Shown: piece after piece, positions 7,369-11,213 of the stretch
Layout of the letters: every line of letters begins with the position of its first letter
Numbering within the stretch: the first letter of the stretch is position 1
NCBI RefSeq assembly: GCF_003334815.1
Contig: NZ_QOWO01000034.1
Length of the DNA: 40,339 bases
DNA from: Escherichia coli
Lineage (GTDB): Bacteria; Pseudomonadota; Gammaproteobacteria; Enterobacterales; Enterobacteriaceae
Reading direction: 5' to 3' (one strand)
Translations under genes and position numbers: made by a program
Notes under the pieces: generated by a model
Database searches by the model: none
Seen by the model: the letters and a program-made list of their open reading frames with translations, nothing else
What the model was told of the DNA's origin: nothing

Positions 7369-7409
7369 TATAAGAAGCTGGTCGCATTGGGTATTCATTG
7401 CCTGATGCG

Positions 7410-7492
7410 ACGCTTACGCGTCTTATCATGCCTACGGGAACCTGACCGTAGGCCGGATAAGGCGTACACGCCGCATCCGGCATAAACAAAGC
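7410..7492. repeat. REP/BIME element (two inverted REP units)
   Basis: gcctgatgcgacgcttacgcgtcttatcatgcctac and gtaggccggataaggcgtacacgccgcatccggca resemble the E. coli REP consensus in opposite orientations immediately 3' of aldB. Confidence 0.6.
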
Positions 7493-7912
7493 GCACGTTG
7501 TTACAATTTACGTTTTAAACCTACGTGCGCAATAACCCAGACTACGCCAACAGAAGTACGTTTCTGGGGCGTGTTTTGTCAGGAGTTTAATCTCGCGTTT
7601 CGATGGTGAGCGGGCGAACCAGGCCGTAAATCACCATTGGTGATCCGAGGCCAATCAGCAATAAACGGTAGATAATTGAAGGTTTAATACGCTTAATCTG
7701 TACTGTGGATGTTTTACTGGAGTTATTCATTAGTTTGGCCAATAGTTCCACTATTTCAATATGATAAACCTCGTCCTGTTGAAAAACCAGACAGCACATT
7801 TAAGAAAGTATATAAAAAACAATATGTCGTTATATAAATAAGGAAATTGCACTGCATCATGGCATTTCATAATATGCGTTAATTGTTCTTTTTTATATTC
7901 TTTGAGGGAAAT

Positions 7913-8236
7913 ATGTTCCTGGACTATTTTGCACTGGGAGTGCTTATTTTTGTATTTCTGGTGATCTTCTATGGGATCATTATTTTACATGATATTCCCT
8001 ACCTGATTGCCAAAAAACGTAATCATCCTCATGCCGACGCCATTCATGTTGCTGGTTGGGTGAGTCTTTTTACGTTACATGTTATCTGGCCGTTTTTGTG
8101 GATTTGGGCCACGCTTTACCGCCCGGAGCGGGGATGGGGAATGCAAAGCCATGATTCATCCGTTATGCAACTGCAACAGCGCATTGCCGGGCTGGAGAAA
8201 CAGCTCGCCGACATCAAATCCTCTTCTGCCGAGTAA
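7913..8236 (+). CDS. yiaW: small inner-membrane protein (DUF3302 family) with C-terminal coiled-coil
   Basis: Track ORF trimmed to ATG at 7913 after gaggga RBS, giving 107 aa [17 protein letters not shown]...; two hydrophobic helices then [18 protein letters not shown]. Confidence 0.8.
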
Positions 8237-8241
8237 TACTT

Positions 8242-9378
8242 ATGGATTTACTGATTATTTTGACCTATGTGGCTTTTGCATGGGCAATGTTTAAGATCTT
8301 CAAAATTCCCGTAAATAAATGGACCATTCCCACAGCGGCCCTGGGTGGAATATTTATTGTCAGCGGTCTAATTCTGTTAATGAACTATAACCATCCGTAT
8401 ACCTTTAAAGCGCAAAAAGCGGTTATTTCTATTCCTGTTGTCCCACAGGTGACTGGTGTGGTGATTGAAGTGACGGATAAGAAAAATACGCTGATTAAAA
8501 AAGGTGAGGTGCTATTTCGACTGGACCCGACGCGTTATCAGGCGCGGGTGGATCGGCTGATGGCGGATATCGTTACCGCAGAACATAAACAGCGGGCGTT
8601 GGGCGCAGAGTTAGATGAGATGGCGGCGAATACTCAGCAGGCAAAGGCCACGCGGGATAAATTCGCTAAAGAGTATCAGCGTTACGCACGTGGCAGCCAG
8701 GCGAAAGTAAACCCGTTTTCAGAACGCGATATCGATGTGGCGCGGCAAAATTATCTGGCGCAGGAAGCCTCCGTGAAGTCATCGGCGGCGGAACAAAAAC
8801 AGATCCAGAGCCAGCTGGATAGCCTGGTGTTGGGTGAACATTCTCAAATCGCCAGCCTGAAAGCACAGCTCGCGGAAGCAAAATATAACCTTGAGCAGAC
8901 GATAGTGCGTGCGCCGAGCGATGGTTATGTGACCCAGGTACTGATTCGTCCGGGTACCTATGCCGCGTCGCTGCCGCTACGTCCGGTGATGGTGTTTATA
9001 CCCGATCAGAAACGACAAATCGTGGCGCAGTTCCGTCAGAACTCCTTGCTGCGACTGGCTCCTGGCGACGATGCGGAAGTGGTGTTTAATGCTCTGCCAG
9101 GTAAGGTATTCAGCGGTAAGCTGGCAGCCATTAGTCCAGCCGTTCCCGGCGGAGCTTATCAGTCGACCGGCACCTTACAGACGTTAAACACAGCGCCGGG
9201 TTCAGATGGCGTTATCGCGACCATTGAACTGGATGAGCACACTGATTTGAGCGCTTTACCAGACGGTATTTACGCCCAGGTGGCGGTTTACTCTGATCAT
9301 TTCAGCCATGTCTCGGTGATGCGCAAAGTGCTATTACGCATGACCAGCTGGGTGCATTACCTTTATCTCGATCATTAA
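8242..9378 (+). CDS. yiaV: membrane-fusion (periplasmic adaptor, HlyD-like) family protein
   Basis: 378 aa; N-terminal TM segment, long coiled-coil-like central region, C-terminal beta-rich region; 5 bp after yiaW stop, implying co-transcription. Confidence 0.85.
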
Positions 9379-10349
9379 TCTTCGCTTTCCGCCGCTTGTT
9401 CAGGCCGCAGTTGCTGCGACTGAGCAAGCTGGTGGCGAATTTCACGCAGCATTTCATCCAGCACATACTGGACCCGCCAGGGCTGGTATTCCCGTTTACG
9501 GAAGATAGCCACCAGATCCAGCCACCATTCATAGGGTTGCTGAAAGCAGGGCACCAGCGTGCCGTCTTGCAGGTCGCTCTGCACACTTTTGTCTGGCGCA
9601 AACACAATCCCCAGGTGATTTCGTGCCAGCTCCAGCGCAGATTGCGTGTTGTCGCAAACGTAATTTCCCTTCACGCGATAATCCCGCACCTCTTTACTCC
9701 CGGCGACGTTGAAGCGCCAGATATTCGCGTCGTCGATCATCATCGAGTCGATCAAAATACAGGAGTGATGTTCGAGTTCGTCAGGACGGCTAATGGGATG
9801 TTTCTCAAGATAGCGCTGGCTGGCATAAGCGGTTACGGCATATTGGGTAATAAAACTGGCAACCAGCGATTCATCTTTTGGTGGAGCGTAGCTGATTAAA
9901 ACATCACAATCATCAGGAAATTCGACGCCTTCATAAAAGGCATTACGCTCAAGATTGCAGGTTTTTAGCGATAAGGTGATATCACCGATATCTTTAATTT
10001 TATCGATTACATGTTTGGATAAATAGGTAATTATGCCGGTTGGGGCGTAGATGGTGACCCGACCACGTTTCTCATGCTTATAATCTGCAATAAAATTATT
10101 AAGTTGCTCGTTTCTGTCCAGCATGTCGTTGATGTACGGTAACAGCGCGGTGCCAAAAGGTGTGAGCATCAGCTGCCGGGTGGTTCGGTCAAAGACTTTT
10201 AAACCCACTTTTGATTCAAAATCAGCAAGATATTTGCTGACGTTGGCCTGTGCGATGCCAAGTACAGTCGCGGCATGGCTGATATTTTCACTGGCAGCGA
10301 TTACCGAGATAATTTTTAACTCCCGGTACTTAAGTTGTAATTTTGTCAT
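9375..10349 (-). CDS. yiaU: LysR-family transcriptional regulator
   Basis: 324 aa; N-terminal HTH ([32 protein letters not shown]) typical of LysR-type regulators; convergent with yiaV, divergent from yiaT. Confidence 0.9.
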
Positions 10350-10472
10350 CGCAACAGCCCAATTATATATAATTTTATATATTACTATATAAATATGAAT
10401 CTTGCACCGGAGAAATTGTAAGCATTATTATGCCGACTCTTTTTTATCTTATTTTAAAATGGAATACCGGAC

Positions 10473-11213
10473 ATGTTAATTAATCGCAATATTGTGGCGT
10501 TATTTGCGTTGCCTTTTATGGCAAGCGCAACTGCTTCTGAATTATCCATTGGTGCTGGTGCGGCTTATAATGAATCGCCTAATCGCGGTTATAATGAAAA
10601 TACGAAGGCAATTCCGCTGATTAGTTATGAAGGTGATACTTTTTATGTTCGTCAGACCACGTTAGGTTTTATTCTGTCGCAAAGTGAAAAAAATGAACTT
10701 AGCCTGACCGCATCCTGGATGCCGCTGGAATTTGACCCTACCGATAATGACGATTATGCCATGCAACAGCTTGATAAGCGTGATAGTACGGCTATGGCGG
10801 GGGTTGCCTGGTATCACCACGAGCGTTGGGGAACCGTGAAAGCCTCTGCAGCTGCGGACGTTCTGGATAACAGCAACGGCTGGGTGGGGGAGCTATCGGT
10901 ATTCCACAAAATGCAGATAGGTCGTCTGTCGCTGACACCTGCGCTGGGCGTTCTCTATTATGACGAGAATTTCAGTGACTATTACTATGGCATTTCAGAG
11001 AGTGAGTCCCGTCGTAGCGGTCTGGCAAGTTATTCCGCGCAGGATGCCTGGGTGCCCTATGTCAGCCTGACGGCAAAATACCCGATAGGAGAGCACGTCG
11101 TATTGATGGCGAGCGCAGGATACAGCGAGCTGCCGGAAGAGATTACCGACAGCCCGATGATTGATCGTAATGAGAGTTTTACCTTTGTCACCGGGGTGAG
11201 CTGGCGTTTTTAA
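10473..11213 (+). CDS. yiaT: MipA/OmpV-family outer-membrane protein
   Basis: 246 aa with signal peptide MLINRNIVALFALPFMASATA and C-terminal aromatic residue (..SWRF) typical of beta-barrel OMPs; recognised as YiaT. Confidence 0.85.
   Translation: MLINRNIVALFALPFMASATASELSIGAGAAYNESPNRGYNENTKAIPLISYEGDTFYVRQTTLGFILSQSEKNELSLTASWMPLEFDPTDNDDYAMQQLDKRDSTAMAGVAWYHHERWGTVKASAAADVLDNSNGWVGELSVFHKMQIGRLSLTPALGVLYYDENFSDYYYGISESESRRSGLASYSAQDAWVPYVSLTAKYPIGEHVVLMASAGYSELPEEITDSPMIDRNESFTFVTGVSWRF

What the first reader, a model, noticed from the sequence alone, without database searches (positions are those of the whole stretch)
7913..11213. Periplasmic adaptor (yiaV) plus small membrane partner (yiaW) with no adjacent pump, next to a LysR regulator and a MipA-family outer-membrane protein
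yiaW (107 aa, two TM helices plus coiled-coil) and yiaV (378 aa HlyD-like adaptor) are arranged like aaeX-aaeA of the aaeXAB efflux system, but where an aaeB-type inner-membrane pump would follow, the convergent LysR gene yiaU sits instead. A divergent MipA/OmpV-family OMP (yiaT) is transcribed from the other side of yiaU. Adaptors normally need a transporter partner, so either the partner is encoded elsewhere or yiaWV has a non-efflux role. This is the least understood multi-gene unit in the window.
Basis: partly seen in the sequence, partly recalled or inferred. Interest (0 to 1): 0.55.

Follow-up and report, generated by a model that had tools for sequence, protein, structure and literature searches.

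The report
Pump-less adaptor pair yiaW–yiaV
The genes are real: yiaW-yiaV of E. coli K-12 is a spare copy of a widespread two-gene cassette, a tiny membrane protein plus an EmrA-like efflux-pump adaptor that never has a pump gene beside it, while the neighbouring regulator yiaU and outer-membrane gene yiaT form a separate unit.

Summary
Window 7913-11213 is E. coli K-12 yiaW, yiaV, yiaU and yiaT at exactly the stated coordinates.

- YiaV is a true periplasmic adaptor. Its closest solved relative is EmrA in the EmrAB-TolC pump.
- YiaW belongs to DUF3302, not to the AaeX family (DUF1656). The aaeX-aaeA resemblance is positional only.
- No pump was missed. In 78 of 78 loci with enough sequence, from alpha- and gammaproteobacteria, a DUF3302 gene is followed within a few bases by a 375-380 aa YiaV-type adaptor. 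No transporter recurs within 8 kb.
- Both genes are under strong purifying selection (dN/dS 0.02-0.09).
- The most conserved parts are the membrane segments, not the periplasmic domains.

yiaWV is an accessory paralog, present in 70% of E. coli genomes. The core copy, yibIH (99.6%), lies 17 kb away. yiaU-yiaT is a separate regulator-target pair that also occurs without yiaWV.

Best reading, inferred rather than shown: YiaW is the dedicated inner-membrane partner of a hexameric adaptor tube that docks on TolC. A pump encoded elsewhere is not excluded. The function is still unknown, so interest is moderate.

The parts
7788..7816 (+). Proposed sigma-70 promoter of the yiaWV operon: CAGACA (7788-7793), 17-nt spacer, TATAAA (7811-7816), in an AT-rich stretch reported to bind H-NS
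   Evidence: The hexamers and the H-NS mark are those listed for yiaWV in the genomic SELEX study PMC3946193. I located them in the sequence. GC is 0.37-0.40 across 7500-8250. My own consensus scan did not list the site because the -10 hexamer ends in A. No transcription start was verified here.
7913..8236 (+). yiaW: 107-aa DUF3302 inner-membrane protein. It has two transmembrane helices joined by a His/Asp-rich cap (H26 D27 ... R36 N H38 P H40 A D42 A I H45), then a short tail helix with a heptad pattern (residues about 81-104).
   Evidence: Pfam PF11742, E 2.7e-43. Hydropathy. AF2 helices at 2-35, 41-68 and 81-104. Family invariants are P29 R36 P39 A43 W49 S51 W59 P60 W65. dN/dS 0.04-0.09.
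8242..9378 (+). yiaV: 378-aa EmrA-type periplasmic adaptor. Parts: TM1 2-19, cytoplasmic turn, TM2 29-50, lipoyl domain, alpha-hairpin 97-152/161-218, beta-barrel 221-350 with a roughly 24-residue loop, and C-terminal amphipathic helix 352-377. There is no membrane-proximal domain.
   Evidence: Pfam, NCBIfam, AF2 model, Foldseek against PDB, profile alignment to EmrA. The alignment to AaeA starts at residue 33, so TM1 is an extra helix. dN/dS about 0.02-0.05 for the unsaturated Escherichia, Citrobacter and Pseudocitrobacter comparisons.
9375..10349 (-). yiaU (proposed name LpsR): LysR-type regulator, convergent with yiaV. The two stop codons overlap in a TTAA at 9375-9378. It belongs to a separate unit with yiaT.
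   Evidence: Full-length matches to LysR-family models, all below the equivalog cut-offs. RefSeq annotation. Sequence. The knockout raises yiaT by 2.8 log2 (PMC9068703). Orthologs occur without yiaWV.
10350..10472 (.). Divergent yiaU-yiaT control region (123 nt, AT-rich)
   Evidence: ORF coordinates. Promoter-like hexamers on both strands. Divergent constitutive promoters with H-NS are listed in PMC3946193.
10473..11213 (+). yiaT: MipA/OmpV-family outer-membrane protein and the reported target of YiaU. It is not part of the yiaWV cassette.
   Evidence: Pfam MipA PF06629, E 4.7e-51. NCBIfam OmpV scores 90 bits against a cut-off of 400. It lies next to the cassette in only 15 of 82 loci, all yiaWV-type loci of Escherichia, Citrobacter and Pseudocitrobacter.

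Best explanation
yiaW-yiaV is a self-contained two-gene cassette, and in E. coli it is the accessory second copy of the core pair yibI-yibH.

What is shown or follows from homology:
- YiaV has every part that lets EmrA build a six-fold tube from the inner membrane to TolC: a membrane anchor, a lipoyl domain, an alpha-hairpin of the same length as EmrA's, a beta-barrel with an EmrA-like long loop, and a C-terminal helix. Like EmrA it has no membrane-proximal domain.

What is inferred:
- In place of a 12-14-helix transporter, its inner-membrane partner is the 2-helix protein YiaW. YiaW is made from the same mRNA a few bases upstream.
- YiaV carries an unusual second transmembrane helix. The YiaV and YiaW membrane helices are the most conserved parts of both proteins.
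- I therefore infer that they assemble into a specific intramembrane bundle, about six of each. This bundle would serve as the base of a YiaV hexamer that docks tip-to-tip on TolC. The result would be a pump-less or minimal envelope-spanning conduit.
- The conserved His/Asp cap of YiaW, together with His and Asn residues at the membrane edge of YiaV, is the likeliest site for proton- or metal-dependent gating.

Substrate and energy source are unknown.

yiaU-yiaT next door is an independent repressor-target pair.
For: Shown:
- Gene linkage. DUF3302 and a 375-380 aa adaptor are adjacent in 78 of 78 loci with enough downstream DNA and in 2 of 2 reverse look-ups that started from the adaptor. The taxa include Dongia (alphaproteobacteria), Marinobacter, Alcanivorax, Aeromonas and Erwinia. 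The gap is 1-5 nt in 68 of 73 pairs, and the adaptor is 378 aa in 72 of 73.
- No pump nearby. No transporter cluster recurs within 8 kb, and the surrounding genes differ between lineages.
- Selection. dN/dS is 0.02-0.09.
- Conservation pattern. Mean frequency of the commonest residue per column is 0.78, 0.83 and 0.85 for YiaV TM1, TM2 and the C-helix, against 0.62-0.65 for the hairpin. For YiaW it is 0.79 and 0.82 for the loop and TM2, against 0.34 for the tail.
- Likeness to EmrA.. The hairpin tip is locally conserved: R147, Y148, F159, S160, D165 and R168 are invariant.

From the literature: EmrA forms a hexameric channel that opens TolC, lacks a membrane-proximal domain, uses its beta-barrel loop to grip helices of the inner-membrane partner, and ends in a C-terminal helix (PMC13139468).

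Hint: a third Citrobacter paralog is preceded, on the same strand, by a small MarA/SoxS/RamA-like regulator.
Against: - No interaction was tested, neither YiaW-YiaV nor YiaV-TolC.
- The AF2 model of a YiaW-linker-YiaV fusion has low confidence in the membrane part (pLDDT 50-75).
- Every characterised adaptor works with an energised transporter. A 2+2-helix assembly has no known way to couple energy.
- TolC itself is encoded elsewhere in the genome, so an unlinked pump partner is possible.
- YiaW topology is unsettled. Positive-residue counts are 3 in the loop against 2 outside it. The His/Asp cap could therefore face either side of the membrane.
- YiaW His56 is not invariant.
- The cassette is dispensable. 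It is missing from 30% of E. coli genomes and is disrupted by IS1 in some isolates.
- The conservation contrast has no control, because I did not measure transmembrane-anchor conservation in EmrA or AaeA families.
Confidence: 0.45

Rival explanations
1. A pump encoded elsewhere. YiaV, with YiaW as a small accessory subunit comparable to AcrZ or AaeX, serves a transporter encoded at another locus. Candidates are an orphan FUSC/PET-family protein or an MFS exporter. Together with TolC this would form an ordinary tripartite efflux pump.
For: YiaV's nearest families are the adaptors of MFS and FUSC pumps: MdtN, EmrA/EmrK and AaeA. TolC shows that partners of these systems can be unlinked (established knowledge). 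Small accessory membrane proteins exist in known pumps, for example AaeX. From my own knowledge, E. coli has FUSC-family proteins with no adjacent adaptor (YccS, YhfK, YeeA).
Against: In characterised systems the adaptor and pump genes are almost always in one operon (established knowledge). Here no transporter recurs beside about 80 cassettes in many different contexts. The strong conservation of the YiaV and YiaW membrane helices is more than a simple anchor or accessory role would need. Genome-wide co-occurrence was not tested.
Confidence: 0.27
2. A role that is not a conduit. The pair uses the adaptor fold for something other than transport. Examples are an envelope-spanning tether or stress sensor, or a factor that holds or modulates TolC or the peptidoglycan and outer membrane, with YiaW as a signalling or anchoring subunit.
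For: - Published phenotypes are diffuse and envelope-related. Deleting yiaW raises Ca2+-mediated transformation (cited in PMC12844161).
- Parallel IS1 insertions arose in yiaW during adaptation to macrophages (PMC3861542).
- yibI is induced in urine. Its deletion lowers fitness in urine (competitive index 0.33) and lowers adhesion (PMC5404293).
- Neighbours in other genera are often envelope or stress genes: DUF1471 BhsA/YahO-like proteins, a DUF3313 lipoprotein, and PqiB.
Against: The complete EmrA-type architecture is kept: the same hairpin length, a conserved tip and the beta-barrel loop. That argues for the same tube-and-dock geometry. The neighbour associations are weak and specific to single lineages.
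Confidence: 0.18
3. A decaying remnant. yiaWV is what is left of an emrAB- or aaeXAB-like operon that lost its pump gene, and it no longer functions.
For: The locus is variable. yiaWV is absent from 30% of E. coli genomes, IS1 insertions occur, the upstream region is AT-rich and reported to bind H-NS, and pseudogene fragments lie nearby.
Against: dN/dS is 0.02-0.09. Adaptor length is invariant. The same pump-less pair is conserved across alpha- and gammaproteobacteria. The paralog yibIH is in 99.6% of E. coli genomes. YiaW is not related to AaeX.
Confidence: 0.03
4. One regulon. yiaW, yiaV, yiaU and yiaT form a single functional module. YiaU controls both yiaWV and yiaT, and YiaT serves as the outer-membrane partner.
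For: The four genes are present or absent together in E. coli (3801 vs 3784 of 5426 genomes). The yiaV and yiaU stop codons overlap. LysR regulators usually act on neighbouring genes (established knowledge).
Against: YiaU orthologs sit next to aldB without yiaWV in Lelliottia and Enterobacter. Cassettes elsewhere lack yiaU and yiaT. In the published yiaU knockout, yiaT and the waa genes change, and the table read here does not list yiaWV. MipA-family proteins are small beta-barrels, not TolC-like outer-membrane channel proteins (established knowledge).
Confidence: 0.07

Closest known systems
EmrA of the EmrAB-TolC pump (MFS-type tripartite efflux; PDB 8zar, 8zal)
   Same: Same domain order: N-terminal membrane helix, lipoyl domain, long alpha-hairpin, beta-barrel with a long loop of about 24 residues, and a C-terminal helix, with no membrane-proximal domain. 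It is the best sequence and fold match. The profile alignment covers EmrA residues 60-327 with only a 2-residue difference at the hairpin tip.
   Different: - Only about 18% identical. It scores 112 bits against the 390.8-bit cut-off of the EmrA/EmrK model.
- YiaV has two N-terminal membrane helices, not one.
- Its C-terminal helix follows the barrel directly. EmrA has a long coil in between.
- No EmrB-type MFS gene is adjacent. A DUF3302 gene is.
AaeXAB (small DUF1656 protein, adaptor AaeA, FUSC/PET pump AaeB, LysR regulator AaeR)
   Same: The gene order is the same: a small two-helix membrane protein, then an adaptor a few bases downstream. AaeA and YiaV are homologous (21% identity, E 1e-14). 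A LysR-family gene is a neighbour in both loci.
   Different: - AaeX is DUF1656 and YiaW is DUF3302, with no detectable relationship.
- There is no AaeB-type gene.
- AaeA has a single membrane helix and a hairpin about 45 residues shorter.
- YiaU is convergent rather than divergent, and scores 33.7 bits against the 425-bit AaeR cut-off.
YibI-YibH of E. coli (the paralogous pair, 17 kb to the left, outside the window)
   Same: 75% and 77% identical to YiaW and YiaV, with the same lengths and gene order and a 2-nt gap. It also has no pump and no known function.
   Different: yibIH is core (5407 of 5426 genomes) and lies between mtlA and yibF. yiaWV is accessory (3801 of 5426) and lies between aldB and yiaU. 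YibI has a longer tail (120 aa).
MacA and AcrA, adaptors of ABC- and RND-type pumps
   Same: They share the lipoyl, hairpin and beta-barrel core and, in the solved pumps, the hexameric TolC-docking geometry.
   Different: MacA and AcrA have a membrane-proximal domain and shorter hairpins. Their partners have large periplasmic domains. YiaV has none of these features.

Membership tests
Periplasmic adaptor / membrane fusion protein superfamily (HlyD/EmrA/AcrA) | Lipoyl (barrel-sandwich) domain, alpha-helical hairpin and beta-barrel domain in the canonical nested order | tested here: met
   Pfam CusB_dom_1 (E 5e-15) and HlyD_D23 (E 2e-9). AF2 secondary-structure layout. Foldseek finds 70 PDB adaptor chains at E <= 0.001, with EmrA on top.
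Periplasmic adaptor / membrane fusion protein superfamily (HlyD/EmrA/AcrA) | Anchored in the inner membrane by a transmembrane helix or a lipid | tested here: met
   Two hydrophobic helices at 1-22 and 27-50. The second aligns with the single anchor of AaeA. This is a prediction only.
Periplasmic adaptor / membrane fusion protein superfamily (HlyD/EmrA/AcrA) | Encoded together with, and working with, an energised inner-membrane transporter (ABC, RND, MFS or FUSC) | tested here: not met
   No transporter gene in the locus. None recurs within 8 kb of about 80 homologous cassettes. A partner encoded elsewhere in the genome was not tested.
Periplasmic adaptor / membrane fusion protein superfamily (HlyD/EmrA/AcrA) | Hexamer that docks on an outer-membrane channel protein (TolC) | not testable with these tools
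   Only indirect support: the hairpin has the length of EmrA's and the tip residues are invariant. No multimer prediction or experiment was possible.
EmrA/EmrK subfamily (NCBIfam TIGR00998) | Score above the curated cut-off of 390.8 bits | tested here: not met
   112 bits. YiaV is EmrA-like in architecture but is not an EmrA ortholog.
AaeXAB p-hydroxybenzoate efflux system | Small subunit of the AaeX family (DUF1656) | tested here: not met
   YiaW is DUF3302 with no DUF1656 hit. AaeX is DUF1656. hhalign probability is 0.09%.
AaeXAB p-hydroxybenzoate efflux system | AaeA-equivalog adaptor (NF007850, cut-off 400 bits) followed by an AaeB-type FUSC pump | tested here: not met
   63.4 bits. The next gene is the convergent yiaU.
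DUF3302 (Pfam PF11742) | Full-length match to the family profile, including the conserved HDIP...RNHPHxDAIH...WPFLWIW core | tested here: met
   E 2.7e-43 over model positions 1-76 of 77. The family has 881 clusters at 50% identity with E <= 0.001.
MipA/OmpV outer-membrane protein family (YiaT) | Full-length match to Pfam MipA | tested here: met
   PF06629, E 4.7e-51, model positions 1-221 of 221. It is not an OmpV equivalog: 90 bits against a 400-bit cut-off.
LysR-type transcriptional regulators (YiaU) | N-terminal helix-turn-helix plus LysR substrate-binding domain over the full length | tested here: met
   Full-length alignments to several LysR-family models, for example YafC over residues 9-298 (E 5e-25). 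All are below the equivalog cut-offs. RefSeq annotation agrees. Pfam was not run on YiaU.

The most novel reading that the evidence does not exclude
YiaW and YiaV together are a complete tripartite system of a new class. About six YiaV and six YiaW subunits would form a ring of about 24 helices in the inner membrane. That ring would itself be the channel or engine, gated by protons or metal ions through the conserved His/Asp cap. It would be joined to TolC by the YiaV tube, with no ABC, RND, MFS or FUSC transporter involved.
Probability: 0.2. Interest if true: 0.8.

Novelty: new variant of a known kind. Interest (0 to 1): 0.45.

Why it matters
Tripartite efflux systems are understood as pump plus adaptor plus outer-membrane channel. 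Here a widespread, strongly conserved adaptor is always paired with a 2-helix protein and never with a pump. Either it has a hidden partner elsewhere in the genome, or adaptors can build a working envelope-spanning device on a minimal membrane base.

E. coli carries two copies, and the core one (yibIH) affects fitness in urine. Both copies remain of unknown function. The analysis turns a vague "orphan adaptor" note into a defined and testable two-protein system. It also shows that yiaU and yiaT should not be used to infer its function.

Tried and rejected
1. Context look-ups for four distant DUF3302 representatives hit contigs of 0.6-1.4 kb and gave no context. I then picked members on long contigs through a profile search.
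Deep diversity therefore rests on about six non-enterobacterial loci.
3. The AF2 model of the YiaW-GS30-YiaV fusion has low confidence in the membrane region, and no coordinates were returned. No interface can be claimed.
4. I tested whether YiaW, or the extra N-terminal helix of YiaV, is a diverged AaeX. hhalign probabilities are 0.09% and 0.25%, so this is rejected.
5. Anti-phage defence or phage origin: there are no PADLOC hits. PHROGs gives four matches for YiaV, the best to a family of unknown function (E 4e-12) and one weak coiled-coil-type match to a tape-measure family, and none for YiaW.
6. YiaW matches no solved structure.
7. Natural YiaW-YiaV fusions: the 446-aa protein P0391 is an internal duplication, not a fusion.
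8. The positive-inside rule for YiaW topology gives 3 K/R in the loop against 2 outside. That is too weak to decide.
9. I found no functional study of yiaV, yiaW, yibH, yibI or DUF3302 in the literature.
Full report
**1. What is in the window**

Window 7500-11500 is 100% identical to E. coli K-12 MG1655. The RefSeq annotation of the matching stretch reads aldB | yiaW | yiaV | yiaU | yiaT | pseudogene fragments | sgbE (annotated there as araD).

- yiaW 7913-8236 (+, 107 aa)
- yiaV 8242-9378 (+, 378 aa)
- yiaU 9375-10349 (-, 324 aa)
- yiaT 10473-11213 (+, 246 aa)

The yiaW-yiaV gap is 5 nt. The stop codons of yiaV and yiaU overlap in a TTAA. No other long ORF that could encode a transporter lies between aldB and the sgb genes.

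**2. What the proteins are**

*YiaW.* It matches Pfam DUF3302 over the whole model (E 2.7e-43). It matches nothing in NCBIfam, PADLOC, PHROGs or the PDB sequences. It has two hydrophobic helices. AF2 places helices at 2-35, 41-68 and 81-104.

*YiaV.* It hits adaptor families in Pfam and NCBIfam. The best are MdtN and EmrA/EmrK at about 112 bits, far below their cut-offs of 376 and 390.8. An AF2 model built on a 60-sequence alignment has mean pLDDT 72.5 and above 85 in most of the lipoyl and hairpin region. It shows, in order:
- two N-terminal helices (2-19 and 29-50)
- a lipoyl domain
- a hairpin of two helices of about 56 residues each
- a beta-barrel
- a C-terminal helix (352-377)

Foldseek against the PDB puts E. 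coli EmrA from the EmrAB-TolC cryo-EM structures first (8zar and 8zal; E 4e-19; TM-score 0.64). MacA, AcrA and MexA follow. A family profile aligns to EmrA residues 60-327 almost without gaps. That stretch includes the hairpin and the long beta-barrel loop.

The EmrAB-TolC paper (PMC13139468) describes EmrA as follows:
- It forms a hexameric channel that opens TolC tip-to-tip.
- It lacks the membrane-proximal domain.
- It uses the beta-barrel loop (residues 294-317) to grip a periplasmic helix bundle of EmrB.
- It ends in a C-terminal helix.

YiaV shares all of these architectural features. Two things differ: it has a second membrane helix, and its C-terminal helix follows the barrel directly.

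*YiaT.* Pfam MipA (E 4.7e-51).

*YiaU.* A full-length LysR-type protein.

**3. The aaeX-aaeA analogy**

I fetched aaeXAB from the same genome.
- AaeX is Pfam DUF1656.
- A 28-sequence DUF3302 profile against AaeX gives an hhalign probability of 0.09%.
- The YiaV family profile against AaeX gives 0.25%.
- AaeA and YiaV are homologous (21% identity, E 1e-14). The alignment starts at YiaV residue 33, so YiaV's first helix is extra. AaeA's hairpin is about 45 residues shorter.

The resemblance is one of gene order, not of family.

**4. Is a pump consistently linked?**

*Family size.* DUF3302 has 881 clusters at 50% identity with E <= 0.001.

*Enterobacterales.* I collected 76 loci by a profile scan.

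*More distant genomes.* I added loci from Erwinia, Dongia soli (an alphaproteobacterium), Aeromonas, Marinobacter and a metagenome contig. Two reverse look-ups started from YiaV-type adaptors, one from Alcanivorax and one from a metagenome contig.

*Linkage.*
- In all 78 loci with enough downstream DNA, the DUF3302 gene is followed directly by a YiaV homolog. The exceptions are cut by contig ends.
- In both reverse look-ups a DUF3302 gene precedes the adaptor.
- The gap is 1-5 nt in 68 of 73 complete pairs, and the adaptor is 378 aa in 72 of 73.

*Neighbours.* I clustered all neighbouring ORFs within 8 kb. Only local backbone genes recur: mtlADR, yibF, selAB, yiaY, aldB and lldPR. yiaU appears in 22 loci and yiaT in 15. 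The larger neighbours I inspected are these:
- a GH127 glycosidase
- a sugar symporter
- a TonB-dependent receptor
- PqiB
- MarC
- a PTS permease
- a DUF3313 lipoprotein
- DUF1471 stress proteins

None is an efflux partner. The conserved unit is therefore the two-gene cassette.

**5. Selection and conservation pattern**

- dN/dS against Escherichia whittamii, Citrobacter and Pseudocitrobacter orthologs is 0.02-0.09 for both genes. The remnant idea fails.
- In YiaV the most conserved regions are TM1, TM2 and the C-terminal helix. The mean frequency of the commonest residue per column is 0.78, 0.83 and 0.85. The hairpin is the least conserved at 0.62-0.65.
- Within the hairpin, the tip residues R147, Y148, F159, S160, D165 and R168 are invariant.
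- In YiaW the inter-helix cap and TM2 are highly conserved (0.79 and 0.82). The core motif is [41 protein letters not shown]. The invariants are P29, R36, P39, A43, W49, S51, W59, P60 and W65.
- The YiaW tail is variable in sequence (0.34) but keeps a heptad pattern, LxxR[IV]xxLExxL.

From my own knowledge, not measured here, membrane anchors of adaptors are usually poorly conserved. This pattern therefore suggests a specific intramembrane YiaW-YiaV assembly and a conserved docking partner at the hairpin tip.

**6. Relationship to yibIH and to yiaU-yiaT**

*yibIH.*
- yibI-yibH lies 17 kb to the left in K-12, beyond rhsA and outside the window. The proteins are 75% and 77% identical to YiaW and YiaV.
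- Among 5426 complete E. coli genomes, yibIH is in 5407, yiaWV in 3801 and yiaU-yiaT in 3784.
- In UTI89, sgbE abuts aldB and the whole yiaWVUT block is missing.
- Some isolates carry IS1 inside yiaW or yiaV. One has an IS1-mediated deletion from yiaY to yiaT.

*yiaU-yiaT.*
- In Lelliottia and an Enterobacter MAG, a YiaU ortholog (68-71% identical) is convergent with aldB, with no yiaWV between them.
- The LysR gene beside a third Citrobacter paralog is only 32-34% identical to YiaU.
- In the published yiaU knockout, yiaT rises 2.8 log2 and the waa genes fall. The table read here does not list yiaWV (PMC9068703).
- A genomic SELEX study lists separate constitutive promoters, marked as H-NS-bound, for yiaWV and for the divergent yiaT/yiaU pair (PMC3946193).

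yiaU-yiaT is therefore an independent regulator-target pair. Its co-presence with yiaWV in E. coli is best explained by a single block insertion or deletion.

**7. Mechanism**

Shown:
- the EmrA-type architecture
- strict genetic coupling to DUF3302
- no linked pump
- strong purifying selection
- membrane-centred conservation

Inferred:
- YiaW is the dedicated inner-membrane partner.
- Six YiaV subunits form a tube that docks on TolC, as EmrA does.
- The YiaW and YiaV helices form the membrane base.
- The His/Asp cap (H26, D27, H38, H40, D42, H45), with YiaV N48, N50 and H51, is the likeliest functional site for protons or metal ions.
- If the YiaW tail helix is periplasmic, it could occupy the beta-barrel cavity in the way EmrB's periplasmic helices do. 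This last point is speculation and depends on a topology I could not settle.

Rivals: a pump encoded elsewhere remains a serious alternative (0.27). A role that is not a conduit is possible (0.18).

Published phenotypes are sparse:
- parallel IS1 insertions in yiaW during adaptation to macrophages (PMC3861542, PMC5495878)
- higher transformation efficiency after yiaW deletion (cited in PMC12844161)
- induction of yibI in urine, and a urine competitive index of 0.33 for its deletion in UTI89 (PMC5404293)
- a listing of yiaV as an uncharacterised membrane fusion protein, TCDB 8.A.1.1.4 (PMC10971958)

**8. Novelty and score**

The genes are annotated and their orphan status is on record. The literature I could search holds no description of the DUF3302-adaptor cassette as a conserved pump-less unit: only two papers mention DUF3302, both in passing. 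I rate it a new variant of a known kind, with moderate interest (0.45). It is a clear and testable open question in a model organism, but no function has been demonstrated, and an ordinary explanation (a pump encoded elsewhere) remains live.

Noticed in passing
window 7587-7799 (-): A small ORF between aldB and yiaW (70 aa as an ORF; RefSeq annotates a 47-aa hypothetical protein). It looks like an in-frame internal deletion of a 127-aa multi-helix membrane protein that is intact in Escherichia sp. E1V33 and E. whittamii (L005:777-1160, L006). K-12 lacks about 57 residues between the 'YGLV' and 'YSLV' repeats.
   Followed up: partly
window 10995-11550 (-/+): Pseudogene remnants lie between yiaT and sgbE: a fragment of a glycoside hydrolase family 127 gene and the tail of an AraC-family gene. 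The intact GH127-MFS symporter-AraC trio is present at this position in other E. coli and in Citrobacter (L095:6371-10802; cluster c16/c20 in L008-L014).
   Followed up: partly
L089:11630-13131 (K-12, 17 kb left of yiaW, outside the window): The paralogous cassette yibI-yibH is separated from yiaWV by yibF-selAB-yiaY-aldB and, in K-12, by the rhsA element. In Citrobacter the two cassettes are only about 9 kb apart. Some Citrobacter genomes carry a third copy.
   Followed up: yes
L071:84-455, L072, L073 (Citrobacter third paralog): The third DUF3302-adaptor cassette is directly preceded, on the same strand, by a 124-aa MarA/SoxS/RamA-like regulator (best hit RamA, E 5e-24, below cut-off). A generic LysR gene follows it, and a TonB-dependent receptor lies nearby.
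   Followed up: partly
L021:7254-7919, L022, L035, L052; L002:9758-10027, L021:9710-9979: A DUF3313 lipoprotein gene flanks the cassette, on either side and in either orientation, in four genera. DUF1471 (BhsA/YahO-like) stress-protein genes lie just downstream in Erwinia, Biostraticola and Pantoea. This is a weak, lineage-specific association with envelope-stress genes.
   Followed up: partly
L093 (strain 1332KP), L094 (strain E70), L095 (FDAARGOS_943): Natural E. coli isolates carry IS1 inside yiaV (after about nt 216) or inside yiaW (after about nt 87). One has an IS1-bounded deletion from yiaY to yiaT. Laboratory evolution with macrophages gave repeated IS1 insertions at yiaW nt 263. The AT-rich cassette appears to be an IS1 target.
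   Followed up: partly
window 9375-9378; L064:15142-15145: The convergent yiaV and yiaU genes share a TTAA that holds both stop codons, so there is no room for terminators. In an Enterobacter MAG, aldB and the yiaU ortholog overlap by 4 nt in the same way, without yiaWV.
   Followed up: no
L020 (labelled Chryseobacterium sp. 18061) and L057 (433-nt contig labelled Myxococcus): Both carry enterobacterial-type sequence. L020 has mtlADR-yibIH-yibF-selAB synteny and a protein 83% identical to YiaW. They look like contamination or mislabelled assemblies.
   Followed up: no
P0391 (446 aa) and P0183 (136 aa): P0391 is a YibH-like protein with an internal tandem duplication of 68 residues. P0183 is a DUF3302 protein whose tail ends in the YiaV C-terminal motif (LLRMRSWQNYVF), as if most of the adaptor gene had been deleted. 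Both are probably assembly artefacts or pseudogenes.
   Followed up: no
window 7400-7490: REP-type palindromic repeats lie directly after aldB. They are followed by a drop in GC to 0.37-0.40 that spans the yiaW promoter region and the 5' half of the cassette.
   Followed up: no
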